DNA of 64,000 nt from Octopus vulgaris (lineage: Eukaryota). Shown piece after piece: positions 4,699 to 59,591 of the stretch. A program made the translations under genes and the position numbers. The DNA lies in assembly GCA_951406725.2 (NCBI GenBank), contig OX597824.1, positions 65,286,001 to 65,350,000 on the forward strand, given 5' to 3'. The notes under the pieces are model-generated. The model was not told the origin of the DNA. It was given only the letters and a program-made list of their open reading frames with translations, and did not search any database. Position 1 is the first letter of the stretch. Every line of letters starts with the position of its first letter.

Positions 4699-4744
<46 letters not shown>

Positions 4745-7154: not shown

Positions 7155-7797
7155 TGTTTAATAATTTTATGTATCCTAAGTATTATTCACAGTATTCAAA
7201 TGAATGTGACAGTTTTTCTACATCTAAAATGCACTGCACATATCCAACATCAACACTAAGGTTTCTATTGAGATTAAGTTGGTTTCTTGTGTATCATGTG
7301 AAGTTTTCCTTATTATGATAGGGTGTTAGTGTGAAGGTCTTGGTATGCTATTTCCAGTTTGATTATCAACTTCATTTGGTATCTAAAAGCATGGATAATA
7401 ATTGCAGTGAAGACAGCTGGCGCCAGAACACATAACAGTGTTAATAGTACTAATGTTCATAATGCATGTATTTCACACACACACACACACACACATGTCA
7501 ATGATTTCATTATAAACAGCAGGGACTGCAGTTAAAATAAAGTACTCAAATCTTCAAGAAGAGGTTAGAATAATTTAAGGAGAAGTGATTCATACAGGAC
7601 TGTTTCTATTCCATTCATGGAGAAATCAACTTGTTGAATGACACGGAATTAGTCTTGTATGAGATACTTCACATTTAGTTAATTAAATGTGTATATTTTA
7701 TCTCTTTTTCTTTTATTTGTTCAGCCATTAGACTGCAGCCATGCTTAGGCACTGCCTTGTGTGTATGTGTGTGTATATATTTATGTGTGTATATATT

Positions 7798-7847
<50 letters not shown>

Positions 7848-9035
7848 TAAATGAAATAAAACATATGCATATATATAAACATATATATACCTACCTCTAC
7901 ATGTACATATACACGCATATATGAGTACAGGACACCAAAGGGACGTCGAACACAAAGAGAAACGAAAACATAGACACAAACCAAAGGAACTGGACATATA
8001 TACATATATATTTGCACATGAGTTGTCTAAAAATCCATAAGCCAGGGAAAAGATGCACTCATATATCTGTTAATGTACAGTATTATCTATCCTTCATGGC
8101 TGATCTTACCAATTGATTTCATGCTAGAAATACAATACAGTGTTAGGTAACAATCCAATTATATAACCTTACGTTGATCAAACTTAGCTGATATGGAATG
8201 GATTATGTAGCAGTTGCTATATTCCTTTTTTGTAGGAGTTACACATATTATTATGTAAAACAGTTTGATTCAACTCCATGCAACTTAAATTTTGTAGGCT
8301 TCTTATAAAAACCTAGCTTGGTGGGCTCAAGTAGCCAAATGAAGATGTGCAGGATGGTTACTGGAAACTGGGCTGCTATTGTTCAAAGTGGGTCATATAT
8401 TATTAAAATGGTATCGAAAATTTTTCTTTTAATACATTCTTTTGTGAGTCATAGTCTGGCCAGATATACGGTTCTCAATGAGGAATGCAATGATTCCAAT
8501 ATATTGTCCACAAAATAGCTTGCAGCAAATATTGTATACTTCATGCTGCCACACACAAAAACTTTGTACAGGTTTTGTATTTACGTTCTTGCATATTGAT
8601 ATTAGGATGTTATTCCAATAGGCACATTGCTCTCTCTGACACTAGATACCAATGATTGTTATACAGGTCCCAAAGCACCGTATCCTATCATGAAGAAATT
8701 AGTGATAGAGGTGGGATTTTAATTCATAATGCCAAGAGCCAGAATAGATATCATAAAGTATCTTGTCTAATGGCCTAACATTTTCTCCATCCTGCCATCT
8801 TGAATTATTTATTTCTTTATTTCTCGAACCCGGCGTCTGGACTCATTGCAGAGCGGACAAAATTACTAATGCATGCTTTTCCATCCAATGCTCAAATAAC
8901 CCTAAAAATTTACTGCTTTGTAGATGCAAATAACTAGGGTTGCCAGATTAGAAAATTAGACATATGGGACACTCTTAAAATCTCTCTGCATATATATATA
9001 TAAATTTATACATGTCTACAATACAGAACAATACA

Positions 9036-9268
9036 CAGGGTTGGCCAAAAGCCACTTGACAGTAAATCAAAACTATTTAGTTCCAAGATTTATTTATGTT
9101 TAACAACTGAATGAATTTAATAAAAGCATCTAAATATGAAACATCATGAAAATTGTTCAAACTGAAGTCCTTCTTGAGTGACACATTTTCCCATTGGAGC
9201 CAATACAGAATCACAGATAGTATTTATAGAAATTTGATTTACTGCTAGGTGACTTATGGCCAATCCTG
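9036..9268. mobile_element. Tc1/mariner-type MITE nested in the hAT element
   Basis: CAGGGTTGGCCAAAAGCCACTTG ... AGGTGACTTATGGCCAATCCTG|TA; a second copy lies in opposite orientation at 26062-26258. Confidence 0.8.
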
Positions 9269-9784
9269 TATTATATAAAAGTAGACAAGTTAAAAACATG
9301 AAGCAATTATTTTAATGGATTATGAGAAAAACAAAAGTAAAATTATTTAATACAAGCTAAAATAGCGAAATAGTTAAAGTGAAATAATTTGAAAATATTT
9401 CTTTAATACAGAAACAGAGAAATAAGCAAATAAATCTGTTAAACTGAAATCATTGTAATTTTTTTTATCCAATGACAAATAGAAACAATATAGAAAAAAT
9501 CTTTTATTGTGAAAGTATTTGAATATTTTTTATTTAATACAGGCAATATAGATAACTAAAAGAAATACTGAGAAAGTGAAATCATTGCATTTTCTTATTC
9601 AATAGAGACAATAGAAAAATGCAAAGGAAATAACTTAGAAAATTATTATTTAATGCAAACAATACAGAAAATAGACTAAGAAGTTGTGTTTCATATGGAG
9701 AACATGAAAAGAAACAAAACTGATAAACTTAAATGCAAAATTTTCTTAACAGACCACATGAGAATTAAACTTAAACCTTTACTT

Positions 9785-11628
9785 TTAGTTATATTTCACT
9801 GATGATTTGGCTTTTGTTAACAGGTCCTTTTTTTCTAACATATGCCTATAAAATTCTTTACATTGATAGTTAAGGTTCCATGTACATTGTAAGATAGCTT
9901 CTACAGTAGCCACATCCAACTTATTTTGTTTTTTAGTCCACTGAACATTTATCATCGAGAAGATATGCTCAACATCAGCATTATGCCCTGGTATGCTAAA
10001 TAAGAACTGGCACAAAATTAACAACTCTGAGTATTGTTCTTGAAACAATCTACTGAAGGATAGAAAACCATCTTTCATGGCACAGTTTGGTTTTCCATTC
10101 ATCAGGTTTGATCTGCATCTCTTTAGCAAGGAATTTTTGAATGTTGATCACTGACAGAAAAGAATGTTGTTGTCAATTTTTATACCTTTGTTCTTTAACA
10201 CTATACAATATGATTCTGCATGTTCCCATACTGGAACTGTATCCAATAACATCCATATAAAGTGATCAAAATTTTCAAAAGATGAAACCCATTTCTCTAG
10301 ATTGTCATAGCAAGTACTGTAATAGTTATCCACTTCAAGTAGAAATTTCTTTTTCTCTTCAGATTTAACATCGTCTTTATTAAGGCAATCCTTCACATTT
10401 CATTAATTCTTTCCTTTATAACTGCAATGATTTCTTTTAAACAGCCAAGCACTTCAATAATGCTGTTTTCTCTCTATTCTATCTTCATAATCCTGTTGCT
10501 AAAAGCATATTCGAAACTGTGAACAAGATATAAGTAGGCTTTGCTCAGTGGATTATTGAAGAATTCTACAAGGATTTGGGGAACCTTTTCTTCAGAATCA
10601 AAAGAAGATTTCAGTGCTTTAAATAACTTTAGGATTCTCTCAACTGCTCTCATCAAAGAAAGCCAATGAGTTTTAGAATGTGAGAGAATTGAGACATACT
10701 GCACACCAACAAACTTGCAGAAATTTTTCAACTTCTCAGATCGAACAGTATGAACACCAAAGTATGAAAACAATTTAACAACAATTACTTCGACATCAAC
10801 AGAAAGAACATTGGCCTCAGTATGAGCCACATTGTACAGGACATGGGCTGGACATCCAACACTTTCCATCAATTCATTCATGCTTTCCTTAATTTTGAAT
10901 AGACTTTATTTGTGCCTATGTGGAAACGTCCACCAAAATTAGTATTTGTGTTATCTCTACCAAAAGCTATACATTTCTTCACGTCCAGTCCTAACTTGAC
11001 AAGGTACTCACTCTCTGCAGAAGCTTGCTATTGTTTTCGAGGGCTCATCTAGAAGGGATCTTACTTGCAATAACTTTATCAACAAACCCTTTTCATGTGA
11101 ACAACATTGCACTATCAATGGGAAAATTTTCTCAGCATTCTGATTACTTGCATCTGTAGATATGCCATAAAAGGAAGAGTTATTTATATCTTTAACAATC
11201 TCTGCAATAGTGTATGGAGTCACATTTTTTATTATTGCAGCACATTTAGTCCTAGCACTTGAAAATTTGTATGCAATTTTAGAATCAGGAAATACTATTG
11301 GTAGTAGTATGTTCATGGTCATTTGAACTGAATGACTGATGATGACGGACAGTATGAAATGCCATCGCAACTCCTGCAGCTTTCTTCACCTGTGTTTTTC
11401 TTGATCAAGAAGTTTGTTATTTTACCAGCTTCTTTTGAAGTAGAAGTAATATTACTTTTGTGCATTGCTGTTTTTAAGTGTTGCTTGATATCAGACTTCC
11501 CGCCATGTTCAATACTGAAAGTGCCATTACATACACCACAGTTTGCTTTCTAAAGAGCTTCTTCCTTGTTTGATAAATGTCCATTCGCTGGAATATTCAT
11601 CAAGAAATTTACACTTACCTTTTGACAT
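9785..11628 (-). pseudogene. hAT-family transposase, frameshifted and with stops
   Basis: Starts MSKGKCKFLDEYSSEW (ATG at 11628). Fragments show ISTDASN, GCPAHVL, SKTHWLSL..AVERIL and the C-terminal dimerisation-like IPGHNADVEHIFSMINVQWTK, split over at least five ORF pieces. Confidence 0.9.
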
Positions 11629-13309
11629 TTTGGGATAGATGGATTGGTTTTTAAGTTAGAAAAAAAGTGGGAAAGTAGTAACAACACACTTTGTTGACAG
11701 TATCAAGTTGCGAGCAAGTCAGTTTTGTGTAAACTTCTAGCAACACTAATTTCCTCGTTTCATTTAAGTTATTTTCATCAAGAGAATATGAAAAAAGAAA
11801 GCATAATTACTTATAAAGTTACAACTAAGAACTGTAAGAAGGTAGTAAAAAAAATATTTTTATTATGAAATTTGAAAGTTAACTAAATACGGGACATTTC
11901 GGGTGTCCCTGAAAGGTCAGTACAGGACAGGGGATAAAATTATCAAATATGGGACATGTCCTGTAAATAAGGGTTGTCTGGCAACCCTAAACATAACCAT
12001 TTCGGTTCACATCAACGTATGTTTTAATCTATATCAGATCAACAAAACGAAAAAAATAAAGTGACTAATATGATTGGGGCTATATCAAATCAGTAAAAAA
12101 GAAAAAAAACAAGACTTATGTAAATGGGTCTTCATTCATTAAAACACTGATATATTCCATAATTTGAATTAATTAGATGTTCGCTGATTTCTTGACTCTT
12201 GTAAGTTTGTGAACACACGTACGCACGCATGTGCACGCGCTCGTGTACGACGGCAGTATTGTGTGTACACACAGTCACACAAAAATCAGATGTTATATAT
12301 GCTAAAAAGGTACATTGAATCAGCAGCCTATCGCGAATAAATAATACCCTATTCATCCTCCTCCATCTCTTACACTTTTCTATATATCTTTTTCTCTTAT
12401 TTTCGGCATATTATTTCTCTTCTCTCCTCAACCACAGACTCCCCTCTCTCTACCACAGCAGCTGCTTTACTTCTCAACATAAGTGTTATATGTTAAATAA
12501 AGCCAGGTGTTAAGTTGCTTGGCCAGCCAGTCAGCCTTGCTTTCAGATTTTCGCTACCGACTTACCTACCTATCTACCTACCTGTTGCTTAGCAACTGCT
12601 CAACCATAGCTGCTATTCAAAAAAGGATCAGTTTAATACTCCTGTCTCCCCAAATCGTAATACGCTGTGACCGCTTCCTAGATTTTTCTTTTTCCTATTC
12701 ATTAAAAAAAATTTCACGCACGCACACACATAAGAATGTACTAAAAGATACCTCAATGTATATATATATCCTGTGCATAATAAACGTACATTTTACATTT
12801 TAGTATGTGCATATATAATATTTATGTATAGCCACACATGCGCATATATAAATGCGCATATATAAAAGCGCATACACATGTACAGAAAAACCTAATATTA
12901 CTATGCTCAGCTGCTTCTGTACCTTAATCGCACACAATATGATTTAACAAAAAATTAATAGATCCATAGATGGATATATCTCTCATTCAATACTATTTGA
13001 ATGAATTGTTATATATATCTATTTATACCATGTAGTTCACAACAGTCCTTTACTACTACCCCAACCACCACCACCAGTATTAGTAGTAGTAATAGTAGAA
13101 AGATGTGTGATATATATGTATATAGCTGTTTGTATGTGTGTGTGTGTAAAATAAGTTGATTTACTCGATTTAAACCCTTCCAGATGTTGCTCCAGCATGG
13201 CCTCAATCCTATGACTGGCACAAGTTATATATTCATGTATATATATTTCGTTTTTGTATTTGATTTGCAAGATTCTTTATGAGAATTCATGTGTTGAAGC
13301 ATATTTTAT

Positions 13310-13573
13310 TGTCTGGGGAGAGTCATTCTCTTTTAGTGCCTTATTACTTAACACACCAGTTCGATTTCCACTCATTTTCTTATTTTTTTCTAAAATTTTC
13401 ATTGCGTCTTGTAACCTCTTTAATATTCGTTGATTCCTCAAGAGTCAACGACTATTAAAGAGGTTACAAGACGCAATGAAAAATTTAGAAAAAATATGAA
13501 GTAAATGAGTGGAAATCGAACCGGTTAGTGTGTTAATTAATAAAGCACTAAAAGAGAATGACTCGCCCCAGAC

Positions 13574-13574
<1 letters not shown>
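13310..13574. repeat. Long palindrome (about 128-bp arms, loop ctcaa at 13437-13441) with a one-sided tail at about 13240-13309, abutting a TA tract
   Basis: tgtctggggagagtcattctcttttagtgc... / ...gcactaaaagagaatgactcgccccagaca; ttttcattgcgtcttgtaacctctttaata / tattaaagaggttacaagacgcaatgaaaa. Confidence 0.95.
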
Positions 13575-14504
<930 letters not shown>

Positions 14505-14720
14505 TGGCACTTGTGCTGATGGGACTGGCTCCTGTGCAGGTGGCACGTAAAAAACACCATTTGAGCGTGGCTGTTGCCAGTACCGCCTGCACCCACTACA
14601 CTCTCAGAGTGGTTGGCGTTAGGAAGGGCATCCAGCTGTAGATACTCTGCCAAATCAGATTGGAGCCTGTTGCAGCCATCTGGTTCGCAAGTCCACAGTC
14701 AAATCGTCCAACCCATGAAT
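14505..14720 (+). mobile_element. Dispersed repeat (SINE body / RTE-like 3' tail: aggaagggcatccagctgtag...cgtccaacccatg)
   Basis: The same module occurs at 25720-25848 (ending in (GAT)n), 27985-28095, and inverted at 23170-23320 and 5080-5240. Confidence 0.75.
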
Positions 14721-14858
14721 TTCATGTTACAAAACATTGCTTACTTTTTCCACAGCCTGACATGTGCACAGACACACAAACACACACACATGCATGCATA
14801 TATATGTACATATTCACATAGATACATATACACTCATGCATATGCATACATATATAGG

Positions 14859-14906
<48 letters not shown>

Positions 14907-14996
14907 AACATATATAGACAGATACATACAGATAACACACACATGAATTGACTCATGCAAGCATAAAAAAGTGGATGTTAAAATGATGATGATGAT

Positions 14997-15260
14997 ATTT
15001 GAAAGGCTCTACAGAAGTAGGGAGAGCTTCTGTTAACCTAGGCAACCTGTAATCTGTAGTAGGAGAGTTTGTTCTAAAAGCATAGTAACCAGAATTTGTG
15101 TAAGCTGGGAAAAGTTCAGGAGGCTAATACCTCTGTTGACAACAAGTGAATTCTGTCTGCAAATGAAGGCTAGATTATTTGATGCTTGTGTACAAACTGC
15201 AATGCTACTTGGTAGTGAGGTGTGGGCATTGAATACAGAGGATGTGTGAAGGTTGAAAAA
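14997..15260 (+). mobile_element. RTE-clade LINE fragment (post-RT region)
   Basis: Translates to WGKFRRLIPLLTT...MKARLFDACVQTAMLLGSEVWALNTED, matching the RTE 'KGRLY.ACVRS.MLYGSETW' motif. Confidence 0.75.
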
Positions 15261-18009
15261 TGACTTTTTTCTTCAGGAAATGTATGGAAGCTTAGGTGCA
15301 ATTCTCTTTCTAGCAGTTTTGGGTATTTCAAAGGAGTAATTGACTATTGATATCTGATGATCACCGACACATGTAAATGTATATGTATAAGTGTATATCA
15401 TATCAAGTTTAGAAAGTAATATTCAAAATGAAGGAAATTGAAAGTTGTGCAGTTTATTTAATGGATGGTGTTAGTGAATTCTTTATTTTGGGACAAAATG
15501 TTCTACATATTTTTCATGACTATTGCTAAATGATATCGACTGAGGGCTGAAGCAGTTTCTGGGAAATAAGAATTGGTCAGTCAAGAAGAAACTGAAGAGT
15601 TACTTAGCTTCTGGTCAGCCCAGTTGAGGAACCATGACTATCCCATCTTTTCAGATATACTTTATCACTGACTACATTTTGCAATCTACTAAAGACAGTA
15701 GAGTGTGATGAGAGAGGTTTGGTTGCTATTTCTAGCAGGTTGAAAGCCCATATAGAAACCCTTCATATGTTGTTTGTATTGGTAGGGATAATCAGTTTTA
15801 TGGTTGTGTTCTGGGGTGTTGTAGATTAACTCAGCCAGTTGAGCATGATACACATGGTGGCAATAAATCAATAGAGAAAAAAATTTAGAGTCAGAACCAT
15901 AATCATATATGTTGGCTGAATAATAGTGAAGAAATCTAATTTAGTCTTTGATGCCATATTTTCCCTTTTTGCCTTTTAGCATCAGTTTCATTTGTGATTA
16001 TGATATAGTCAAAGCTGGCTACATTTGAGTAAAGGTTTAAGGTTATTTCTATGTCCCATTGTTGCCAGAGTAGTAAAACTGCAGCTAGTTCATTTTAGCC
16101 ATTGATAATTTGCCAACCTTGACTGATATTTTGTTTTGTTAATACAATTATTATAATGATTATTTCTCATGAGACTTGGTCCTGTTTCTTCAGTTGCTAT
16201 TTCTCATTTCTTCTTTATGAGAACCTCTTAAAGAAAGAGAAAAAAAAGAAAGTCTTTTTTTTTATATATATTTTGTGAATTGTATTTGTTCGATGATATA
16301 TATTTGCTGCTTCTTTTTTTCTTGGGTCAACAGGATGAACGCTGATAACATTATAGGAAATTAAATCATGGAATATTGATTAAGTATCATTTTTAGATAC
16401 ATCTCACATTTACTAGACTAATTATTATGTATGATGGTTGGATATCTGTGTGACCTAAGTGATAAAGTAAAGTTGGAGAAAAGAAAAAAAAAAAATGAAA
16501 AATGTTCAATGAAAGCATGGTAATCTAATGTAAACTTTCTAACATTATCAATTCACATTCTGCCCCCAGAATTGTGATATTTAATTATGGAAGAGTTTAT
16601 TATTACTCTATTTGGCTTCAGCAATCTTATTGAGAATAAAAAGTATTTCTACATAACAGATGTATAGTTGACTGTAAAAATAACATCAACAATTTTTTCA
16701 AATATCAAAAAATTTAAAGACTGATTTCAATGGCTCTTGTAATATGACAAGAATTGTAAGACCATTTAAAAATCTTTTGAATATTTAGCTTGAATGTATT
16801 TTGTTCAGCTCTAGGTCAGCCATGATTGAATAGACAAACGTATTCCAATCATGTCCATCTCATCTTTTCAGATAAAGTTTAACTTTGACTAGGATTGTCA
16901 GGATAAAACATTAGAGTTAACGACTGTCAAACTTGGTGCACAAGAATATCGGACATTTCATTCTTAATGACCTGATAAAAATAAAGAGAAAATTGCATAA
17001 TCTAAGAGGAATGTTGCATTATTTAAAATCCTTGAGGTATCAGCAATTACATTGAAATATCATTTTCTTAAAATCTTCCACAAATCTACATCATATTTAT
17101 TATGTCTAGGATTGTGGATGTGAAATATTTTATCTTTCAAATGTTTCATTATGTGGTGCACCCTTGAGAGTCATAAACTTCCTGGCTTTATCTGTTTTCA
17201 GATGTTACACCTCCACCTGATAAAACAATTCAACACACCCATTATCTTTTGATGTATTATACAAAGAAATCTACCTGATTTTAATAACTATTCAACTTCT
17301 TTCAGAATTTTATTTCACTCACAGATGGGGTTGTTCCACCATTTTTTATTTTGCATTCCATTTTTTCCCTGTAGGCTCTTTGCAACATTTTATATTTTTG
17401 CTGTATCCTTACTCATCTTTATCACTTTACTTTCTTATCTACATCTCTCATCTCTTTCACTTTTATTCAATTTCAGTTCATCTTTTTCTTAGCACTTTTC
17501 GTTTTATTCCAAACATATCATCCCATTTGCTTCCAAAGAAACTTCAACTACTCTGTTGGCACATTATTTTAACATATTTCATTTCATTCAAGTAGATTTT
17601 ATCTCAAAATTTCTGATTATTATTTCATGTCATCTCTTTTTACTCTCATCTTAAATTTCCTTTCACCTTTACATCTTACCTTTAATTCATCAATTTTTCT
17701 TATCAGTTTTGAATTGACCTGACCTCAAATACATTTTTTCTAGTTGTTTTTTCCCAGACTCATGTTAGAAGTTCTCTCATTAGTAAATTTTCTGAAAACT
17801 CAGATTTCAGTCCTTGCAGTGTTAACTTAGTGTTAACTAAGTTATCTTCCATTTCAGCCTTGTTATAATTTGTAAATATATTGAATTGCTTTGAAGTTTC
17901 CAGGATATAACCAACCACAACTGTTGCTACTACTACCACTGTCACCGCCACTTCAGGGATCAGCAAAATAGTTACATAATTTCTGTTCTCTCTCTCTCTC
18001 TCTCTCTCT

Positions 18010-18047
<38 letters not shown>

Positions 18048-18706
18048 TGCATGCATATATATATGACTGAGAGAGTGAGAAGCTGTTTGCATGGATGAAA
18101 GCAGTACAATATGCCAGATAAATATATGCTCACCTTAACTTTTAGTTACAAGTAAAACATATTTCTGGTTGCAAGTAAATTGACATGTACAGATAACAGA
18201 AAGCACATCTACTGGCTGGTTGTATTCTAATAATCTTTATCTTAATCATAAATACTAATTAATATTATCTTTATAAATGAACTTTTGAAAACATTTAGGT
18301 CCCTTAGAATTAGTGTTTCAACTCTTAACCTGAAATTCTGAAATAATGGATTATTGTTAACACCTGGGATTCTATCACTACTTAAAAATACTTAAACAAA
18401 TGAAAAAACAAAACAAAAAAAAAAACACCCTAACTCCAATACCTTCTTAATGAGTAATTTTAGAAAACTCTAAAGGATTAGTTTTGTGTTAGAATTATCA
18501 TATTAAAGAGATACCATTACTTGCAGCTCTAAAGGATTAAAGAGGAAGGCCCAGTTGCCAAGGGATTTATGATATATTATCTCTAATCCAGTGCAAAGGT
18601 ATTTTAGAAAATGTGCATGGATTGAAAGTGATGTAGGGTATTAAAGTTCAACATGATTGATAGACTTTGATTTCCATGATTGGTTAGAAAAAAAAAATCA
18701 GAGTTA

Positions 18707-19088
18707 GGTGCAGGCACAGGTGTGTGATAAGAAGTTTGCTTCCCAACCACATGGTTCTGGTTCAGTACCACTGCATGGTACCTTGATCAAGTGTCTTCTA
18801 TAATAGTCTTGAGCTGACCAAAGCCTTGTGAGTGGATTCGATAGACGGAAATTGAAAGAAGCTTGCCTTGTGTGTGTGTGTTGTGTTGTGTTTGTCCTGT
18901 ATCACTGCTTAACAACCAGTGTTGGTTTATTAATGTCCCTGGTTTATGGTTTGGTAAAAGAGACTGATAGAGTAAAAACGAAACTTTAGAAAAAACCTAC
19001 TGGAGTCAATTCATTTGACTAAAACCCTTAAAGGTTGTACCTCCAGCATGGTCGTAGTCCAGTGACTGAAACAAATAAAAAAATAAAG
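18707..19088 (+). mobile_element. SINE family A copy
   Basis: Full head-body-tail, collinear with the other copies. Confidence 0.85.
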
Positions 19089-19715
19089 GGTAGAAACATA
19101 AGTTAGGCTTTGAAAAATTATTAATAATGCCACCTTTTGAAGTATTGTATTTGTATTCTTCTGGCATCTTATTTAGCTATGAATATGACCATCTCTCCAA
19201 TCCATGTTTTAAAGTTAAAGGATATTTGCTAGTCATGTTGTTGCTTATAGTACATTCTAGTCATGTCTAGTTCATTTGGGTCTAATATCTTCTGCAGTTT
19301 ATTTAGTTTCAAAAGCTGCATTCCCAATAAGGTTGATCCGACCTATCTATGCCTTCTTACTCTCTCTGACACTTGCACATTCACACACCGTATACATATA
19401 CATACATATATATGTACACTTATATATGGCTGCATAAAATCCATAACCCTGAGTCTAACAAAAAATATTCTGTTGGACACCTCCCCCCCTGCACATGCAT
19501 GCACGTGCGCATGCCTAATTGTGTTTAATGCAAGAAATTTAACACAAAACAGTAGGCTCAAAATTGGCAAGTAACAGTCTATTCAAGTGTAAAAGAAAGA
19601 TAAGAGGATAAAATGATAAAATATATTATTGATTTTTAGGTACAAAATCTGCAATGGGTTATATTATAATCGAGATAGCATTGTATTTGAACAAATGCTG
19701 TGTGAGTGTGTGTGT

Positions 19716-19789
<74 letters not shown>

Positions 19790-19791
<2 letters not shown>

Positions 19792-20325
19792 GTGCAAACA
19801 TAAGTTGGGTGGAAAGAAGTTTGCTTCCCAACCATCTGGTTTTGGGTTCAGTCTCACTGTGTAGCACTTTTGGCAAGTGTCTTCTACTATAGCTTTGGGC
19901 TGACCAAAGCCTTGTAAGTGAATTTGGTACTTAGAAACTGAAAGAAACTGTGTGTGTGTGTGTGTGTGTGTGCGTGCATGTTTATATATATGCTTATATA
20001 TATATGCTTATATGTATTCTTATATATATATATATATATACACATGCATATGTGTATGTATATATATATGAATGTGTATGTGCATGTGTGTTACTATCTC
20101 CTTGTGTTGACATATGGTAATTGTAAATGAGTGCTACCTTCATGCAAGCGATGTCCTTTATTTCCAGTCTTGCTTGAAAATATGTCAGATTTTGAAGAAA
20201 TTTTACCTCACTTGGAAACAGGTGAGGGTTGGTCACAGGAAAGGCATCCGGCCATAGGCAATTCACCGCAACTGGCTCTGTTGAACCCACGGAAATGTGA
20301 ATATCAAAACAATGATGCTGATGAC
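19790..20325 (+). mobile_element. SINE with family A head and alternative 3' module (ggaaacaggtgagggttgg...aggaaaggcatccggcc)
   Basis: The same chimeric layout occurs at 41705-42100 (+), 44790-45220 (-), 56955-57297 (-) and 58420-58880 (-). Confidence 0.7.
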
Positions 20326-21104
20326 ACACGCATGCATATGCACGTGCATGCGCACACACACACACACACACATTAGGCATGATTGTTTGATTTAAACATT
20401 TGCTTTCCAACACACAGTTTTGAATTCAGTCCCGCTGTGTGGCTTTTTAGGTAAGTGTCTTCTACTATAGTTCTGGGCCAACCAAAGCCTTGCGAGCAGA
20501 TTTAATAGACTGAAATTAAAAGAAGCCTGTTGTATATGTATATATTTGTTTGTATATAAATCTGTTTCTGTCATCTTATCTTTACTTATGCTTGCATAGA
20601 TAAAGATGATGATGATAATGATGATAATTACCGGGTTAATTATTCAAAATTAATTTAGATTGACATTTATTATGTAATTAAGACTTAGCAAACAATCAGT
20701 TACAATTATCACAGCATTCCATTTGTCTTTTTCTTTCCCCTATAAAAGAATTTGCTATCAGCTTTATTTTAATTGCTCAACCTATTAAACTCAACAATAA
20801 TAATTGTTTACGAGTGTGGATTGTTGTGAGTAAATTGTTTTATATCCTTTAATTCTGAAAATGAACTTAGAATTTTTAGTTTCAGCAAATGACAAGATGA
20901 TAACATCTTTCTTTACTCTTTCCTCTCACAACATACAATCTTCTAATTACACATATATCTTCTCAGTATCTGTAGCTAATTATTGAAGGTTAATCTAATT
21001 GATTAAAGGATTAATACTTTATTAATACATTATTGTCTACATTTCAATATACATTTTGACCTGCTTTTATTTTTACACTTGCTGTACCTGTACATTAGAG
21101 TTAA

Positions 21105-21315
21105 CTCTTGAGAGTTTAAACTGGTCATATACAACCTGTTTTATGTTCATTCAAACTTGCTAGATCTGGCTTCTCACACCTACCCTACAATGTCATTCTA
21201 AAAATAAACAATTATATCTTCAGAATCTTGAAGCCATGAGATAATGCATGATTGATTCAAAACAATGTGAATAAATAAATGTAACATTTAATAGAATATT
21301 CTGAATGCTAATGGG
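21105..21315. mobile_element. piggyBac-type MITE (TTAA TSD)
   Basis: TTAA|ctcttgag...ctgaatgctaatggg|TTAA; homologous to 44455-44670. Confidence 0.75.
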
Positions 21316-21369
21316 TTAAAGTTAATTTTTCATAGTGTATCAAATTTGTTATTCTGCTAGTAAAGATTC

Positions 21370-21472
21370 AATTTAAGGTTGAATACCTTTAAATTAGAAA
21401 TAAATTTAAGGTTGAATTACCTTTAAAGTAGAAATAAATTTGAGGTTGAATACCTTTAAAGAAGAAATAAAT
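21370..21472. repeat. Three-copy tandem repeat of about 33 bp
   Basis: (aatttaaggttgaatacctttaaa(t/g)tagaaata) x3; each unit is internally hairpin-like (tttaaggt...acctttaaa). Confidence 0.9.
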
Positions 21473-21667
21473 GCCTATAAATCATTTATTTCTTGCCATT
21501 TTTAATAATTCACTTTGTAACTACTTTGAGTTTCTTTCTTTGTATCTTGTATCTGTTCATTCATATTCATTTACCTGAAAAAATGTATGTAAGTGAGAAA
21601 TTTGGAGCAGTGACAGTGAATTAAATTAGGTTTGTGTATGTGTCTGTGAGTTTGTGTGTTTATGCTT

Positions 21668-21984
21668 GGTGAAGGCATGTAGCTTAGCAGTTAGAGTATT
21701 TGGCTCAATATTGTATGGTTAGGTCATGAGTTCAGTACCTGGCAGGGCATTGAGTCCTTGAGCAAGACTCTTTATTTCACGTTGCTCCAGTCTACTCAGC
21801 TGGCGAAAATGAGGAGTACCTGTATTTCAAAGGGCTAGCTTTGTTGCATCATGCTGAATCTACCTTAAGGGTATGCATGTCTTTGGAGAGCTCAGCCACT
21901 TACATGTTAATTTCATGAGCAGGCTGTTTGTTCTGTTGATCAAATCAATTGGAACCCTCATTGCCATAACCGACAGAGTGCCAA
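21668..21984 (+). mobile_element. tRNA-derived SINE family B
   Basis: tRNA-like head (tagcttagcagttagag...gagttcagtacc); tgtatttcaaaggg...gctcagccac...ggaaccctc...acagagtgccaa is shared with 34171-34555. Confidence 0.75.
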
Positions 21985-22840
21985 TTTCATGTTTATGCTT
22001 ACAAATGAAAGAAAACATAGTCAATATTTGATGTATTGGTTATATTTATTGGGAACCAATTAACAATTCACTCCATTACTTTAAAGAGTTTTATGCACGA
22101 ATAAGTGTAGTATGTTTGTGTGTGTGTGCGTGCATGCATGCGTGTAATTTTTACACATTCTGTATTATTTTACATATTAATTTCATGTTTAAAAATACCA
22201 CATTCTCTTTTCTGTCTCTCCACCCCAGCATTACTATCTTGCTATATTCTTTTCTCCTCTTCACTACTTTATATTTTCAGATCACTTCATTCTTTTTTGT
22301 TTTTTGTACTGTCGCTTCTGTTTTTTTTTAAAAAAAATGTATAATAAAGATAAAAACAATTTTATAGGTTATTTTTTGTTCAGTTTTATATAAATATTCG
22401 TGTCATGTACTTTCCTATGAATGCCAAATAGTCACCTCTACACAATGAAAAAAAAATAACCCTAGTGAAATATTAGACATTTCACATGCCTTGCTGAGTG
22501 TGTGTAGGCATTTATAGCTTTGTGTGTATGTCTGCAAGTGCATTTGATTGTGTGTGTGTGTGTTTCTATTTGCAATTTTGATTGTGTGGTGGTAAATGTG
22601 TGAAATTTTTTTTAAACCAAAATTTTGCATTTGCATTTATACTTTTGATTATGTGACATTTTTTGTGAATTTTAGCTTTAGATTGTGTCTCTGTGTATAA
22701 ATATGTGTGTATGTATATGTGTGTTTCTGAGTTTGTATTTATGCTTTTGATTTTGTGATTTATGTGGAAGTGTATGAGAATTTCTGTTTTAGGATATGTT
22801 TTTGTGTATTTATATAAATTTGTTTTTGATCAAGACTGGA

Positions 22841-22884
<44 letters not shown>

Positions 22885-23409
22885 TGTACACACACATACA
22901 CACACATACATGCATATATAGTTCATGAGAAGAAGCGTGATAAATTGTCACCCTCATACTAGCAGTGTAGTTCATTTCTAATTGCCTGAAAAATTTCTGG
23001 CCTTGAGGAAATATTACCTTGCTTGAAAACAGGTAAAGGTTGGTGCTGAGGGGCATCCAGCCATAGCATGTCTGCCTTATTGGATTCTGTCTGGTCCATG
23101 CTGACATGGTAAATTGAATGTTAAAATGATGATAGTATTGATGAATTACACACACACACCATCCTCATTTCAACCATTATCATCCTCCTCTAACGTCCAT
23201 TTACCATACTGGCATGGGTTGGACAGTTTGACCAGAGCTGGGAAGCTGCACCAAGTTTCAATCTGATTTGGTTTAATTTCTACAGCTGGATGCCTTTCCA
23301 AACATCAACCACTTTGCAGTGTATGCTGGATGCTTTTAAAATGCCACTAGCACAAGTGCTGTTATTTGGCACTAGCATGAGTGCTTAATATGTGGCACTG
23401 GCACAGGAC

Positions 23410-46510: not shown

Positions 46511-46619
46511 GTAGTACGCACTCCAGAAAAGTTAACAAGGAATTTTTTTTTTAAATCTCCTCACCCAAGTTAAAGAACTTATCTACGATTTTCAAGTGAA
46601 TAACATTAATTTTTTTTTT

Positions 46620-47051
46620 TGCATAAATATTTTGTAAAAGACCCATTCATAACTTTGGTGTAAAATACTACTTGTTTTGTCTGCTGGTACAAGTATCCCT
46701 GGAGCTTTTTTTTAAGTCAACAAGTAATTTTCTGATTTTCTGTTGATGTATATTACACCTTCTAGGGTACTTCCTGAATTTCACCTTCTTGACAATATTA
46801 TATAATTGTTCTTAAAATCTGGTTTGGTGTTGGTTTGTCAGTGGGTTCCTTCTAGATTTGAATACTTTCCTTAGTAGGTCACCATGTTCAGGTTTGTCAT
46901 TTGGCCTAAGCTCCTTGTTGAAAAAGAAAGCTTTCCACTGCATCTTTTGCGCAAATTGGTTTGTTTTCTCCAAAAGATCACGTATATAATCCTTCCTACT
47001 GGGGATAGGTATGTCCTTTAGCGAAACATTCAGTGTTATTTTATCCATCAT
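46620..47051 (-). pseudogene. Penelope-like element ORF, N-terminal fragment
   Basis: MDKITLNVSLKDIPIPSRKDY...KTNQFAQKMQWKAFFF...FKSRRNP..., then across frameshifts LYNIVKKVKFRK...ILVPADKTS. This is the SLKNIPIP / MRWKA.FF / ADKT signature found upstream of PLE reverse transcriptases; the RT itself is absent. Confidence 0.75.
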
Positions 47052-47233
47052 CTTGGTATGCTACTGTATAGCACCTTCTTCCTAGAAATCGGAAATTGGT
47101 TGTGGTTAATGGATAATAAAACGAATGGTTTACACCTGGTAGCTTACTGGTAAAGCACGGTCACTTTCAGAGTGATCGTTAGGTATATAGCAAATGAAAG
47201 ACAGAAGATGGAATATACGAGAATTTATTATTA

Positions 47234-47336
47234 ATCATGATAATTATTTCGACACATCTAGCATCGATTCCTCTTGTGGGAACTCAACAACTGGTTCAAG
47301 AGAATCCTGTGGTGCAGATGTATCTCATCAGATGAT
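47234..47336 (-). ncRNA. Type I hammerhead ribozyme upstream of the Penelope-like ORF
   Basis: Minus strand: stem I ATCAT - CTGATGA - stem II GATACATCT...AGATGTGTC - GAAA - palindromic stem III (ATAATTAT) - ATC cleavage triplet - ATGAT. All core nucleotides are canonical. Confidence 0.85.
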
Positions 47337-47592
47337 AAATAAATAAATAAAAACAACTTGTTAAAATGACCATTCCACATTGTAACTTACTGTTTTGTAG
47401 AGAGAAAAACAGCCTGACGGAGGAAAAATCTTCTTATATATAGATTAAAAATAAAATGGCAGAAGACAAAAAGAGAAACAATCATAAGCTTGACGCTCTA
47501 ACCGCTGAGCCACGTGCCTTCACACATATATATAATGTGTATATAAATATATGTATATATATATATATATATATATACATATGATGAGGATG

Positions 47593-50020: not shown

Positions 50021-51098
50021 TTGCACTTATATATATGCAAAAAAAATATGAATTCTTATATAGGCACAAGGCCTCAAATTTGTGGGAAGGGACCAGTTGA
50101 TTATATCAACCCAATATTAGACTGGTAACTGATTTTATGAATCTTGGAAGGATGAAAAGCAAAGATGACATCAGCAGGTTTTGAATTCAGAATGTAAAGA
50201 GCTGGCTAAGTAATAAAGCTCCATTGATTCTGCAAATCCTCTGCAAAATGTATATAAAAACATAAGAACAAAATACATACAGGAAACATGCATGTATAAA
50301 GATCTTTTGTAGAAAAAAAATATTTATAATCCAGATGTATAAAAAAACAAAACAAATCTGATTGCAAGGAAACTAAAAAATGTTAAATATTAATTAACAG
50401 AATTGTTTTTAATGAATCTTGGAAAATAGAGGTTGGGAAAAAAAAAAAGATGATCCCTCTGAAACTTCTTCATATTGTGTATGATATACCATTTTTATGT
50501 CCCATTTTTCATTATTGTTTGAAAATAAGAACTTGAGTAATATTTTATGAATTTTCAACTTCCATTAAAATTACTATAAGATGATAGATGATAAAGTGTT
50601 GATCGGTTGATAGCCCCCACCATGCTTTATGTTGTTCAGAGAGAAGGGAGAGAAAATAAGAGATGCAGAGAGAGTTAACACAAGAGGTATAAGATGAATG
50701 CCCATAAGACTTAGTAGCAGGCAATGATAACATTTTGAAAATACATTCTAATAAAATTTTGCAGATATCGGTACTTGATGGAGTAGATGGCTATTTTGTT
50801 GATAAAATATAGAAAAATAATGGCAAATATACAAATGAAAAATCTGTTTTATTTAATTTTATTTTAAACTAATACTTTTCTTTTGAAAAATAGTATTCAT
50901 TTCATCATTTTCTATAAGCACTGAGAAATTTGATAAAAGTTAAATTATAATTACTGCATGTATACTACATATCCTGATATTAGCCATGGTAACAAAAGTA
51001 TACTTCTAAAGTTATCTGTCATACAAAGGGTGACATGCCAGTATATATAAGTCCAGGAGTTAGCTGTTCATACACGCACACATACATACATACATTCA

Positions 51099-51134
<36 letters not shown>

Positions 51135-51293
51135 TAGATAGATAGATATGTATATGTATGTATGTATTGGTAACTGCGTAATTGGATAAATAATTTCTTT
51201 TAATAGAATTTAGTGGTTCAGTAACATATGTTTTGTGCAGTCAATATATTTGCACATAATCTATGGTATTGGATCGCTGAGTTCTATTAAAAG

Positions 51294-51345
<52 letters not shown>

Positions 51346-51350
51346 ATGTA

Positions 51351-51386
<36 letters not shown>

Positions 51387-52008
51387 CGTATGTGTATGTG
51401 TGTGTGAAGAGAGTGGGGGGAAAGAGATATGTACATTTGTAGGCTTGAAAAGGAGCTATTTTTTTTGCTCACTATTTTATTGTAATCGAAATTGCTAACA
51501 AGGCTTTCTATGTGTATAAAGAATCTGATGAGCTATCAAACTCATTTCTCTTGTGCCCTCCTGCAAGGACATTTCATTGAAATGTTGGTTTATACATTTT
51601 GCATCTGCGTTCATTATTTGTTTTCTATATCCTCTATTCCATTACTACTTGTTGCTCAGACAGTCTCTTCTCATAGTCCTTACCTTCCCTTTTCCCTGTC
51701 AACCACTCTCCTACTCCACACTGCTCTTTAAATGTAGCAGACATGTGATTCAGCCTTCTGTTCTATGCCAAATCCAGTCATCAATCATTCAGCGGAGACC
51801 AAGGGCTGAGGTGCTTAAGTTGCCGTGGCAACTGAAAGATGCCTGCAATTACAGCAGAGCTCATGGTTACAGTGCACTTATGAATCGAACAACTTGCATA
51901 TTTATGTTTGAGCGTGTATGCAGATCATATAAGAATATGTTTATGCACGTGTATAATGATATTTTTGTCTGGAATATTTGCACATGTCTGTTTGTGTGTG
52001 CATATGTA

Positions 52009-52050
<42 letters not shown>

Positions 52051-52500
52051 TATTTTCTCTTCATGATGTGAATGTATGTGTATGTAATGATGTTTTTGTG
52101 TGGAAATATGTACATGTGCTTATATGTACATACAAGACTTAGTGGCAGGCAAATGAGTACGCTTTGTGTGACACTATGTGTATAACAGTATATTGTCTGG
52201 AAACTACTTTCTTTTGAACGGTCTTACCTAGACATTAATGGTGATTCAAATATCAAATGAATAACCTTAAGTGTATTTGCAAGTGTGTGTGTGTGTGTGT
52301 TTTATTCTTCAAGGAACAATCATTAAAATACACACATTTTAATAATTGTTCCATGAAGAATAAAACTTACATTGTACTTAAGATTGTTGTGTGTAATCTA
52401 TCACTCACATTTTCTTCTATATGCGTGTGTGTGTGTGTGTGTGTGTGTGCACATAAATATTCATACGTAAATCTCTCGCTGCCTCTTCACTCACATGTGT

Positions 52501-54551: not shown

Positions 54552-54740
54552 GAGTGAGCATATAAATGTGAAACAAGGTGGAAAAAATAGTACTTGAATA
54601 CCGGAGGTAGAGTAATATGCTTTATTAATAAAGCTTCAAAGACATCACAAAAACTTACTCAGAGTTTCACATTCCCATGAACAGGAAAATGCAACTCTGT
54701 AACAGTTTTTGTGATATCTTTGCAACTTTATTAATAAAGT
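54552..54740. repeat. Older, internally deleted copy of the adjacent palindromic element
   Basis: Shares the leader taaatgtgaaacaaggtggaaaaaa.agtact...ggtagagtaatatgctttatt with 54760-54835, and is itself an imperfect fold-back. Confidence 0.85.
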
Positions 54741-54862
54741 GTATATATGTATATACACCGGAGTAAACACATAAATGTGAAACAAGGTGGAAAAAAGAGT
54801 ACTCAAATACCAGTGGTAGAGTAATATGCTTTATTTAAAAGCAGCAGAAAATTCAACAAAAC

Positions 54863-54900
54863 CTGTTACTCTGAGTTTCACGTCCCCGTTCGTCGGACAG
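54863..54900 (-). ncRNA. Minimal type I hammerhead motif (U4C core variant)
   Basis: Reverse complement: CTGT CCGACGA ACG GGGA CGT GAAAC TCAGA GTA ACAG. Confidence 0.65.
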
Positions 54901-54923
54901 TTTTTGCTAGAATCTAGCAAAAA

Positions 54924-54961
54924 CTGTCCGACGAACGGGAACGTGAAACTCAGAGTAACAG
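54924..54961 (+). ncRNA. Minimal type I hammerhead motif (U4C core variant)
   Basis: CTGT CCGACGA ACG GGAA CGT GAAAC TCAGA GTA ACAG: stem I CTGT/ACAG, stem II ACG/CGT with a GNRA loop, stem III ACTC-A-GAGT, GUA site. Confidence 0.65.
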
Positions 54962-55419
54962 GTTTTGTTGAATTTTCTGCTGCTTTTAAATAAAGTATAT
55001 ATATATATATATATATATATATGATATTCTTCTTTTAATTTCTGTCCACTGAATACACACTCAAGGCTTTGATTACCACAAGGCTATAGTAGAAGTCACT
55101 TGTCCAAGGAACCATGCATTGGAGCTGAACCTGAAATCATATGGCTAAGAATCAAAATTCTCAACCATAGACCAATTTGTGTGTGATATGTATAAGAGTT
55201 TTTGTATCTTTATGTGTAATGGTTTCCTTTTTGGAGAGTAAGTTTGGTGCTGATGGCAGAAACAGATCAAATGTTGCATTGTGGTGAGCTACATATTTCT
55301 GAGCTCAAATCTTTTTGGATATCATGTTGGTTTTTGTCAGTAATATATTGTAAAAGCCAATTGAGAAAATCCTTTCATCCATAAATGTGTAACACACACC
55401 TACACATACTAACTTATAT

Positions 55420-57341: not shown

Positions 57342-58067
57342 AGAGAGAGGGAGAGAGAGAGAGATACAGACACATATATACCTATACATATATACACACA
57401 CACAAACATGTGTACATACAAGTAACTATGCACATATGCTCTGACATATGCGTGTAAGCTTGCATGTGCAATTGTGTATATACATATATATATTTATATA
57501 TACATACACATTTATAAACTGTAACATACATACACATGCATGCACACACATACACATATATATATATGCATGTATGGTCATGCATAAATGTAGATGTGTG
57601 GCAGCATCTATTTGTGTCTCTATAGTTGGTGCATCGTGTTGTCTGTGATGGGAAATGTTATGCAGTTACAGTATGCTGCAGAGTGATATATAAACATTTT
57701 TGTAGTTGAGGAATGATATATAACAGCAGCACGTTTATTTGTGATGGAAAACTGATGTGTAGCGCTGGAGTGGTTGTAAACTACTATAGTGGAAGTTTAC
57801 TATTGTAATAACTGAGTCACTATGTTCAACTATCTTCTAGCAGATGTGTGTGTGTGTGTGCGCGCATGTATATACATATATTTTTTTTTATTAATATGTA
57901 ACAAAATTTACAGAGTGACTCAAGGTCTGAGAGTTTCGTGCACTGGCACTTATCAAACTCTTGGACCTTGAGTCACTCTGTTACTTCTGCTAAATATTAA
58001 TAAAAATATACATATACCTATATTCTGAGTTCTATTTTTCCTGTTTGCATTACCATACCTGTATGTA

Positions 58068-58174: not shown

Positions 58175-58987
58175 ATAAATATATATCTGGTATATACGGG
58201 TATAAACTGGTGTATAAATATATATAACTGGTATATACTGGTTATATATAACTGGTGTGTGTGTATAAATATATATAACTGGTATAGCCAATTCATACAT
58301 TGTCTGATCAGCATTCTAATATATGTGTTTGCCCCCCCTCTCTCTCTCATACATGTATGTGTGTGTGTATATATCTATCTGTCTATCTGTGTACATGTCA
58401 TCATCATTGTTGTTGTTGTTTTAACATTTACATTTCCCAGCTTGCATAGGTCAGGCATACAGCAGTGAGGCAGATTTTCTGTGGCCGGATGCCCTTCCTG
58501 TCTCTAACCCTTACCTGTTTCCAAGTTAAGTAATATTTTCTCATGGCCAGACATGTTTCGATGGAAGATAGGAAATGAATGACACAGCTTGTATGATGCT
58601 GACACTCATTTGCAACTATTGTGCAATGTCATGACAAGGGTACAGAAACACTCATGCATTCATGTGTGCACACACATGCATACACATACGCACAAAACTG
58701 CACATAAACACATATATGCTATGGGATTTTTCAGTTTCCATCTACTAAATCCACTCACAAGGTTTTGGTTGGCCTGAGGCTGTAGTAGTAGACACTTACT
58801 CAAAGAGCCATGCAATAGGACTAAACCCCAAACCACATGGTTATGAAGCAAACGTCTTAACCACACAGTTATACCTGTGCCTATATATCCATATTCTGGT
58901 TGAACTAGTACTTTCATGCATTAAACGTTGCAATCTTCAGGTTCATGTAGTAGTGGTGACAGTTATGTTTTACAGTTTACAACTGTA

Positions 58988-59081: not shown

Positions 59082-59128
<47 letters not shown>

Positions 59129-59277
59129 ATATTAATTAGAGACAAAACCACTATTATGCAAATCAAACAAAGAAAGACTTAATCCAATACATAAAAAATT
59201 TTCGGTGCCCCAGCATGGCCACAGCTCATGAGCTGAAACTAGAAAATCAAAAAAAAAAAATCAAAAAATTAAGATAT

Positions 59278-59323
59278 CCACTACAATCGTTTCTTGTCAC
59301 TTCTATTGACATTCATCAGGTGG
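59278..59323 (-). ncRNA. Type I hammerhead motif (left arm)
   Basis: Reverse complement: CCAC CTGATGA ATGTCA ATAGAAG TGACAA GAAAC GATT GTA GTGG. Confidence 0.7.
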
Positions 59324-59362
59324 TTTCAAGACCTTCTTTGCAATGCAAAGAAGGTCTTGAAA

Positions 59363-59408
59363 CCACCTGATGAATGTCAATAGAAGTGACAAGAAACGAT
59401 CGTAGTGG
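59363..59408 (+). ncRNA. Type I hammerhead motif (right arm)
   Basis: CCAC CTGATGA A TGTCA ATAGAAG TGACA A GAAAC GATC GTA GTGG: stem I CCAC/GTGG, stem II TGTCA/TGACA (A.A at the core-proximal pair), palindromic stem III ACGATCGT, GUA site. Confidence 0.75.
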
Positions 59409-59591
59409 ATATCTTAATTATATTTAATTTATATAAAATTTTTTATGTATTGGATTAAGTCTTTCTTTGTTTGATTTGCATAATAGTGGTTTTGTCTCTA
59501 ATTAATATTATTTTATATTTTACTATAAAATTGGATTCAATCCTAAATCTGATTTTTCCCTGTAAATTTGGATTAATTCCCTAATATTTAT

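What the first reader, a model, noticed from the sequence alone, without database searches (positions are those of the whole stretch)
46620..47460. Penelope-like 5' region with a fully canonical hammerhead having an unusually long stem II
Seen: about 185 nt upstream of the PLE-like ATG and on the same strand is a hammerhead with perfect core (CTGATGA, G-C closing pair, GAAA, AUC), a 5-bp stem I and palindromic stem III ATAATTAT. Stem II is extended to about 75 nt with a second helix (GATTCTCTTG / CAAGAGGAATC). Predicted cleavage is 3' of position 47239. Known: PLE hammerheads are usually minimal with a short stem II. This provides a local example of the autonomous partner type for the palindromic elements, and the ribozyme is better preserved than the frameshifted ORF.
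Basis: partly seen in the sequence, partly recalled or inferred. Interest (0 to 1): 0.7.

Follow-up and report, generated by a model that had tools for sequence, protein, structure and literature searches.

The report
Octopus Hydra-type jumping-gene long-arm hammerhead
This is a worn piece of a known kind of jumping gene (a Hydra-clade Penelope-like element) from an octopus, carrying the expected self-cutting hammerhead RNA, but in this repeat family one arm of the ribozyme is about three times longer than in the relatives examined.

Summary
The hammerhead is real (minus strand 47336-47234; type I; 74-nt stem II region; predicted cut 3' of 47239, 187 nt before the ATG). The ORF is the truncated N-terminus of a Hydra-clade Penelope-like element (Craig et al. 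2021), 90% identical to an Octopus bimaculoides protein; full-length relatives carry RT and GIY-YIG. A hammerhead about 150-190 nt before the ATG is the normal pLTR layout of this clade. The long stem II is a family trait, not a one-off: contigs from four public runs span it, and the pLTR part is far more abundant than the ORF. It is unusual: 43 distinct Hydra-type hammerheads from metagenome loci have 10-25 nt. Three claims fail. The copy is not fully canonical (AUC triplet and U-A at 15.2-16.2, where about 95% of family depth and 43 of 43 relatives have C-G). It is not better preserved than its ORF (14.0% versus 14.9% divergence). It shares no DNA with the window's palindromic elements. Verdict: new variant of a known kind; the function of the extension is untested.

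The parts
47107..47465 (-). pseudo-LTR: the 3' end of a Hydra-clade PLE placed before the next unit's 5' end; high-copy part of the family; upstream limit approximate (a SINE-like head follows at 47470)
   Evidence: summed contig depth 1e4-2e5 in DNA runs over 47091-47346 and 5,000-23,000 over 47379-47442 (X1, X13); loose ends reading (TA)n at 47107, 47112 and 47184
47234..47336 (-). type I hammerhead ribozyme motif; predicted cut 3' of 47239
   Evidence: 0 of 100 shuffles reach the strict descriptor
47251..47324 (-). 74-nt stem II region: 12-bp basal helix (47324-47313 with 47251-47263, one bulge) plus an inner structured insert
   Evidence: spanned without large deletion by records 8, 15, 16, 24, 30, 31 (all four runs)
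   Evidence: pair probabilities 0.39-0.97; one search shows majority differences at 47299 and insertions behind 47275 and 47281
47240..47247 (-). palindromic stem III AUAAUUAU; U15.2-A16.2 in this copy, C-G in about 95-98% of family depth (palindrome kept)
   Evidence: table 3 rows 47241 and 47246; 43 of 43 relatives C-G; monomer pair probability 0.0
47142..47156 (-). first of two short hairpins between ribozyme and ATG, analogous to the GCTC...GAGCACT hairpin of Hydra-type loci
   Evidence: analogy by position and GCT...AGC arms; sequence differs
47060..47072 (-). second short hairpin, just before the ATG
46662..47051 (-). decayed, 3'-truncated N-terminus of a Hydra-clade PLE ORF (S-x-K-D-I-P, QWK for RWK, DKT); in-frame stop at 46813-46815, frameshift in the A-run near 46706-46713, homology ends about 46662-46672; no RT core or endonuclease present
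   Evidence: contig matches end at 46662-46672

Best explanation
The locus is a dead fragment of an octopus family of Hydra-clade Penelope-like retroelements: pLTR (3' end of one unit with its hammerhead) followed by the 5' UTR and first ~125 codons of the next unit. In the active family the ribozyme most likely cuts tandem or read-through transcripts into unit-length RNA (leaving 187 nt before the ATG), working as a dimer through the palindromic stem III or with the element's protein as chaperone, as proposed or shown for other PLE hammerheads (inferred). The long stem II most likely arose once in the family's founder as an insertion into loop 2, which these tertiary-contact-free hammerheads tolerate, and was then copied into very many short 3'-end insertions at (TA)n (insertion inferred; family-wide presence shown). 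This copy has drifted about 14% from other copies, has a weaker all-A-U stem III and no same-family partner in the 64 kb, so it is probably weakly active or silent.
For: Protein: 90% identity to O. bimaculoides UniRef A0A0L8G9Q2; 567 relatives at E<=0.001, 5 of the 8 long ones aligned carry YRDDG, CxCx5C and a GIY-YIG-like motif (Pfam RVT_1 E 8.5e-4 and GIY-YIG E 9e-4 in one protein each, both below cutoff); RWK/DKT/CxCX5C are the Hydra diagnostics in PMC8557442 section 11 and the N-terminus matches its Hydra ORFs by eye. Layout: 54 of 79 Hydra-type loci carry a type I hammerhead; cut-to-ATG 144-185 nt in 18 loci. Family-wide long stem and high copy of the 3' end, (TA)n termini, matching the clade's (TA)n preference. 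Decay: 14.0% versus 14.9%; 11 of 18 listed ORF differences nonsynonymous, one a stop. Dimer or protein dependence: PMC4209133 (sections read), PMC11167929 (passages).
Against: No full-length member of this family was recovered, so RT and endonuclease are known only from relatives of about 30-45% identity. One search shows only 40 of 457 variant rows and 15 of 55 joints, so a short-stem subfamily is not excluded (depth inside stem II is 2-6 times lower than just 3' of it). This copy differs from the majority by a double change that keeps stem III paired and by changes that improve its inner helix, which fits a distinct subfamily under selection as well as drift. No cleavage data.
Confidence: 0.62

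Rival explanations
1. Same element, but the stem II extension is a selected RNA domain. After cleavage it lies within the last ~90 nt of the unit RNA and could be the handle bound by the element's protein (RT loading or ribozyme chaperoning), which would explain why the short 3'-end copies outnumber ORF copies so strongly.
For: Insert retained in copies from runs labelled as four organisms codes A, B, D, F; basal 12-bp helix very stable; both this copy and the majority letters can form an inner helix of 8-10 pairs (loose ends read by eye); 3'-end copies 20-100 times deeper than the ORF; the Anolis PLE hammerhead needs the protein (PMC11167929).
Against: Inheritance from one founder explains retention; the inner region carries the family's commonest indels (table 4); the two inner folds are different helices; 43 of 43 relatives work without it; 5'-truncated 3' ends are the normal excess product of target-primed reverse transcription (established knowledge); in the Anolis element the binding region mapped to the first 172 nt of the ORF (PMC11167929).
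Confidence: 0.22
2. This copy belongs to a separate, older ORF-bearing subfamily whose ribozyme (U-A stem III, rod-like stem II) was itself selected; the high-copy majority is a derived non-autonomous branch.
For: Double change at 15.2-16.2 keeps the palindrome; several differences from the majority turn mismatches of the rod fold into pairs (by eye); 7 of 18 listed ORF differences are synonymous, somewhat above a neutral quarter to a third.
Against: The window's letters are also the minority (mostly 20% or less of depth) among ORF-bearing contigs; both stem III changes are C-to-T type transitions; AUC is essentially absent from natural hammerheads (abstract of PMC1636495); the rod fold was chosen after seeing this copy.
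Confidence: 0.11
3. The ribozyme at this locus has been kept by the host (exaptation) while the ORF decayed.
For: All core nucleotides are intact; near-identical low-depth contigs in run X2 (RNA only a guess) cover 46626-46793, 46813-47141 and 47361-47465.
Against: Equal divergence of ribozyme and ORF; 13 core positions stay intact by chance with probability about 0.16-0.25 at 10-13% divergence; no host exon found among 80 of 151 candidate frames scanned.
Confidence: 0.05

Closest known systems
Hydra clade of C-terminal EN+ Penelope-like elements (Craig, Yushenova, Rodriguez, Arkhipova 2021, PMC8557442), including Hydra-1_Obim from Octopus bimaculoides
   Same: N-terminal SxKxIP and (R/Q)WK motifs, DKT, type I hammerhead in the pLTR, (TA)n termini, two alternative 3' ends (about 50 nt after the ribozyme or about 30 nt after the first hairpin, as the published consensi end by eye).
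   Different: Different family from Hydra-1_Obim (whose ribozyme has a 7-bp stem II and 8-nt loop). The 26 Hydra rows of File S2 have stems of 3-7 bp and loops of 3-10 nt; here the region is 74 nt. This copy has U15.2-A16.2 and AUC.
Minimal and palindromic-helix-III type I hammerheads of metazoan PLEs (Cervera and De la Pena 2014, PMC4209133)
   Same: Conserved core, G10.1-C11.1, short palindromic helix III suited to a dimer, no loop 1-loop 2 tertiary motif, mostly lone copies from truncated elements, some in opposite-strand pairs.
   Different: Helix II 12 bp plus a ~50-nt structured insert instead of 6-8 bp and a small loop.
PLE-X1_sMoe hammerhead of Selaginella (PMC8557442 File S2, marked as deviating from canonical)
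   Same: PLE type I hammerhead with a long stem II region (9 bp plus a 35-nt loop, 54 nt by my count): a precedent for the long arm.
   Different: Plant, Chlamys-related, endonuclease-less, rDNA-targeted; shorter insert; no sequence relation tested.
Non-LTR retrozymes (PMC7229834; bioRxiv 10.64898/2026.07.22.740005)
   Same: Short, high-copy, non-coding elements with type I hammerheads, argued to derive from PLE pLTRs.
   Different: No tandem array here; the abundant copies end in (TA)n like PLE 3' ends; circular RNA not tested.

Membership tests
Type I hammerhead ribozyme | Core CUGANGA / GAAA / UH around three helices, helix I open | tested here: met
Type I hammerhead ribozyme | Self-cleavage 3' of residue 17 | not testable with these tools
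   Only contigs were available; they cannot show RNA ends
Canonical (extended) type I hammerhead | 4-bp helix II with loop 1-loop 2 tertiary contact | tested here: not met
   Helix II runs 12 bp before the first loop; canonical sizes from PMC4209133
Rfam hammerhead families | Match to an Rfam covariance model | tested here: not met
   5 chance matches at E<=10 in 47100-47530, none a hammerhead; the long insert explains the miss
Hydra-clade PLE | N-terminal RWK motif, GxKF/Y not conserved | tested here: met
   QWKAFFF in P0001; homologous column is RW in all 8 long relatives
Hydra-clade PLE | DKG motif changed to DKT | tested here: met
   ADKT in the shifted frame, at the place of DK[TS] in relatives
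Hydra-clade PLE | RT core, CxCX5C linker, C-terminal GIY-YIG without CCHH | tested here: inconclusive
   Absent from this truncated copy; YRDDG in 8 of 8 and CxCx5C plus GIY-YIG-like motif in 5 of 8 long relatives; no full-length member of the family found
Hydra-clade PLE | Hammerhead in the pLTR, same strand, shortly before the ATG | tested here: met
   187 nt here; 144-185 nt in 18 loci
Hydra-clade PLE | Insertion into (TA)n | tested here: met
   Loose ends reading (TA)n at 47107, 47112, 47184 in X1, X11, X13; shown for the family, not for this copy's own ends
Hydra-clade PLE hammerhead | Short stem II region and C15.2-G16.2 | tested here: not met
   10-25 nt and C-G in 43 of 43; here 74 nt and U-A; model R1 built from 44 relatives misses it. 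Family majority does have C-G
Hydra-clade PLE | RT phylogeny inside the Hydra clade | not testable with these tools
   No RT sequence of this family was available
Non-LTR retrozyme | Tandem 150-400 nt repeats each with a type I hammerhead | tested here: not met
   No second copy in the window; genome-wide arrays not testable
Naiad/Chlamys PLE | N-terminal GIY-YIG, no canonical hammerhead | tested here: not met
   Relatives have the endonuclease at the C-terminus; hammerhead present

The most novel reading that the evidence does not exclude
A very abundant octopus Hydra-PLE family has turned loop 2 of its hammerhead into a ~50-nt structured domain that serves as the protein-binding or RT-loading handle at the 3' end of the cleaved RNA; such long-arm ribozymes would be a large class missed by Rfam and by short-loop descriptors. 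Together with the twin hairpins flanking the element junction across the clade, it would define the cis signals of Hydra-type transposition.
Probability: 0.2. Interest if true: 0.62.

Novelty: new variant of a known kind. Interest (0 to 1): 0.36.

Why it matters
The role of hammerheads in Penelope-like elements is still open (PMC8557442; PMC11167929 found cleavage dispensable for insertion in vitro). A natural high-copy family with a 74-nt stem II offers a ready comparison (insert versus tetraloop) and hundreds to thousands of copies for covariation. It also shows that standard searches undercount PLE hammerheads: Rfam and a model trained on the clade's own ribozymes both miss it. This single decayed copy is itself ordinary.

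Tried and rejected
No whole genome is held for the window, so copies could not be aligned one by one. Pattern scans for family copies found 0 in metagenome contigs, 0 in viral contigs and 5 prokaryotic 18-mer matches that extend no further than 23 nt and are chance. Hydra proteins were not found in viral contigs (0 of 54 candidates). A search for longer proteins with P0002 1-110 gave 0 of 36 candidates (weak evidence). No RNA holder listed; X2 is RNA only by guess, so expression is not shown. A 5' UTR intron like that of Drosophila Penelope (GT...AG near 47147-47082) was considered: no such joint among the 15 of 55 joints shown, X2 record 27 reads through 46813-47141 without gaps, and the family's 3' end falls inside it; rejected. 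Host-gene context: 0 Pfam hits in 80 of 151 candidate frames; not resolved. Cofolding two copies did not form the stem III duplex (swap through stem II instead; palindrome duplex only -2.6 kcal/mol): inconclusive for the dimer. Partnership with the palindromic elements: rejected at family level. Literature: searches found no description of a long-stem-II hammerhead in octopus or Hydra PLEs nor of the twin hairpins; the library lacks most subscription papers, Repbase/Dfam entries were not searchable, the Terminon paper (Arkhipova 2017) was not read, and supplements of the bioRxiv preprint and of PMC4209133 were not seen. Earlier findings by sequence and place: none. A fold of the family-majority stem II was not computed; it is read by eye.

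Full report
Observation. The motif is in the sequence as described, on the minus strand. Stem I is AUCAU/AUGAU (47336-47332 with 47238-47234), the core CUGAUGA is 47331-47325, stem II opens with G-C (47324/47251), GAAA is 47250-47247, stem III is the palindrome AUAAUUAU (47247-47240) and C17 is 47239. The stem II region is 74 nt. A loose descriptor finds 4 motifs in the window against a mean of 0.12 in 100 shuffles; a strict one, met by this motif, finds 0 in 100 shuffles. Folding z is -2.87. Rfam lists no hammerhead here (one search showed 150 of 253 matches, none a hammerhead).

The ORF. The ATG at 47051 opens MMDKITLNVSLKDIPIPSRK...MQWKAFFF. It is 90% identical to an uncharacterised Octopus bimaculoides protein, the only hit among 13 candidates. 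That protein has 567 relatives at E<=0.001. Of the 8 relatives longer than 570 aa that I aligned, all 8 have YRDDG and 5 reach a CxCx5C linker and a GIY-YIG-like motif; Pfam gives RVT_1 and GIY-YIG below cutoff in one protein each. RWK, DKT and CxCX5C are the diagnostics of the Hydra clade of Penelope-like elements (PMC8557442, section 11 read), and the N-terminus matches the published Hydra ORFs by eye (supplement passages). The local copy has an in-frame stop at 46813-46815, a frameshift near 46706-46713, reaches ADKT and ends near 46662-46672. It has no RT core. The clade assignment therefore rests on the N-terminus and the layout.

Layout. I fetched 79 Hydra-type loci (the best 80 of 239 relatives). 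54 of 79 carry a type I hammerhead (61 hits, 59 on the ORF strand). In 18 loci with a recognisable next ATG the cut lies 144-185 nt upstream; here 187 nt. So a hammerhead before the ATG is the ordinary pLTR arrangement: the 3' end of one unit followed by the 5' end of the next.

Is the long stem unusual? Yes for this clade. The 43 distinct stem II regions are 10-25 nt (median 18), although the descriptor allowed up to 200 nt. The 26 Hydra rows of File S2 of PMC8557442 have 3-7 bp stems and 3-10 nt loops. A covariance model from 44 of these motifs finds five short hammerheads in the window but not this one. It is not without precedent among PLEs: PLE-X1_sMoe has a 54-nt stem II region, and minimal PLE hammerheads were first described with a larger than usual helix II (PMC4209133, parts 1-2 of 4 read).

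Is it a family trait? Yes. Laying contigs of four runs at 80% likeness gives summed depth of 107,000-121,000 (X1) and 176,000-196,000 (X13) at 47187-47250, 25,000-63,000 inside stem II, 700-6,800 over the ORF and a few hundred in the flank, while single long contigs are about 40-55 deep. The tool warns that summed depth is no copy number; it still shows a highly repeated 3' end and a much rarer ORF. Six of the 32 listed pieces (of 5,879) span the whole stem II at nearly equal length, in all four runs. Loose ends reading (TA)n at 47107-47112 and 47184 mark two 3' termini, in line with the clade's (TA)n preference. Several single contigs join opposite strands around the ribozyme, so the family forms its own inverted structures. 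Only part of each table is shown (40 of 457 variant rows, 15 of 55 joints), so a short-stem subfamily is not excluded.

Is this copy well preserved? No. At 47246 and 47241 about 95-98% of depth in all four runs has C15.2-G16.2, as do 43 of 43 relatives; this copy has U-A, giving the AUC triplet that is essentially absent from natural hammerheads though active after transcription (abstract of PMC1636495). Pieces over the ribozyme differ from this copy by 14.0% (6 pieces, including 3' flank), ORF-only pieces by 14.9% (12 pieces). Thirteen core positions survive such divergence by chance with probability 0.16-0.25. Of 18 listed majority differences in the reading frame 11 are nonsynonymous, one being this copy's stop. 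Inside stem II the majority differs at 47299 and has insertions behind 47275 and 47281. This was not computed; the inner fold of the family is open.

Partner of the palindromic elements? The element has no DNA similarity to anything else in the window (best E 0.049, AT-rich), nor to the palindromes at 54824-55000 and 59119-59518. Their ribozymes are short-stem types; that at 54861-54963 is about 80% like those of L001, L002, L004, L005 and L055. They are Hydra-type 3' ends of other families.

Mechanism. Shown: anatomy, clade motifs, family-wide long stem, excess of 3' ends, decay. Inferred: in active copies the ribozyme cuts tandem transcripts to unit length, as a dimer or with the element's protein. 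PMC4209133 reports no monomer and low dimer activity for minimal PLE hammerheads; PMC11167929 (passages) reports cleavage only with protein and no need for it in insertion in vitro. A 12-bp helix II leaves no room for the canonical loop 1-loop 2 contact, so loop 2 is free to take an insertion. I favour a tolerated founder insertion (0.62) over a selected protein-binding domain (0.22), a separate selected subfamily (0.11) or host exaptation (0.05).

Novelty. My eight paper searches found no account of this family's ribozyme; the published octopus Hydra family has a short stem II. The library is partial and repeat databases were not available. Verdict: a new variant of a known kind, modest interest, with a clean test available.

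Noticed in passing
L001-L079, between hammerhead and ATG; window 47156-47142 and 47072-47060 (-): Hydra-type loci carry a conserved hairpin GCT[CG]-N5-22-GAGCACT twice, one 40-57 nt after the ribozyme and one just before the ATG: 27 of 37 distinct ribozymes have at least one, 17 have two within 200 nt; GAGCACT occurs 109 times on the ORF strand and 10 on the other. It is visible by eye in published Hydra consensi but I found no mention (weak search). The window has two analogous hairpins flanking the family's (TA)n 3' end. Candidate cis signals for priming or endonuclease recognition.
   Followed up: partly
window 54824-55000: Palindromic element (97% inverted) with two opposite hammerheads (54922-54963 +, 54861-54902 -) having a CCGACGA core variant; about 80% like the ribozymes of L001, L002, L004, L005, L055.
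   Followed up: partly
window 59119-59518: Palindromic element with two opposite short-stem hammerheads (cores at 59367 + and 59319 -), A-A mismatch at the base of stem II, (TA)n at both ends.
   Followed up: partly
window 58899-58945 (-): A lone short-stem hammerhead (CUGAAGA, U-U mismatch, palindromic stem III, GUA) next to (TA)n; Hydra-type by model R1, E 0.004.
   Followed up: partly
window 4335-4623, 13301-13585, 1947-2201, 57876-58015, 54620-54739, 51073-51406, 52299-52366: Further long inverted repeats (67-90% identity) without a hammerhead hit in my scans.
   Followed up: no
window 47470-47523 (-): Looks by eye like the 5' head of a tRNA-derived SINE (recalled resemblance, not tested), abutting the upstream end of the pLTR and a (TA)n tract.
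   Followed up: no
window 46611-46667: Depth of about 2,300-2,600 in X1 and X13 with a separate loose end at 46667 suggests another repeat fragment joined to the truncated ORF end.
   Followed up: no
P0002 and window 46706-46713: The O. bimaculoides protein reads the same shifted frame (GYLYQQTKQV) just before DKT as the window's copy: slippage in the same A-run, or a shared old lesion.
   Followed up: no
P0050: A Hydra-type RT protein from Argonauta hians is named 'GATA zinc finger domain-containing protein 14-like' by its source, a likely misannotation.
   Followed up: no
window 47129-47138 (-): A 9-10 nt word around CTACCAGGT is shared by eye with the 5' UTR of Hydra-1_Obim and the 3' flank of the Penelope-16_HM ribozyme; significance not tested.
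   Followed up: no
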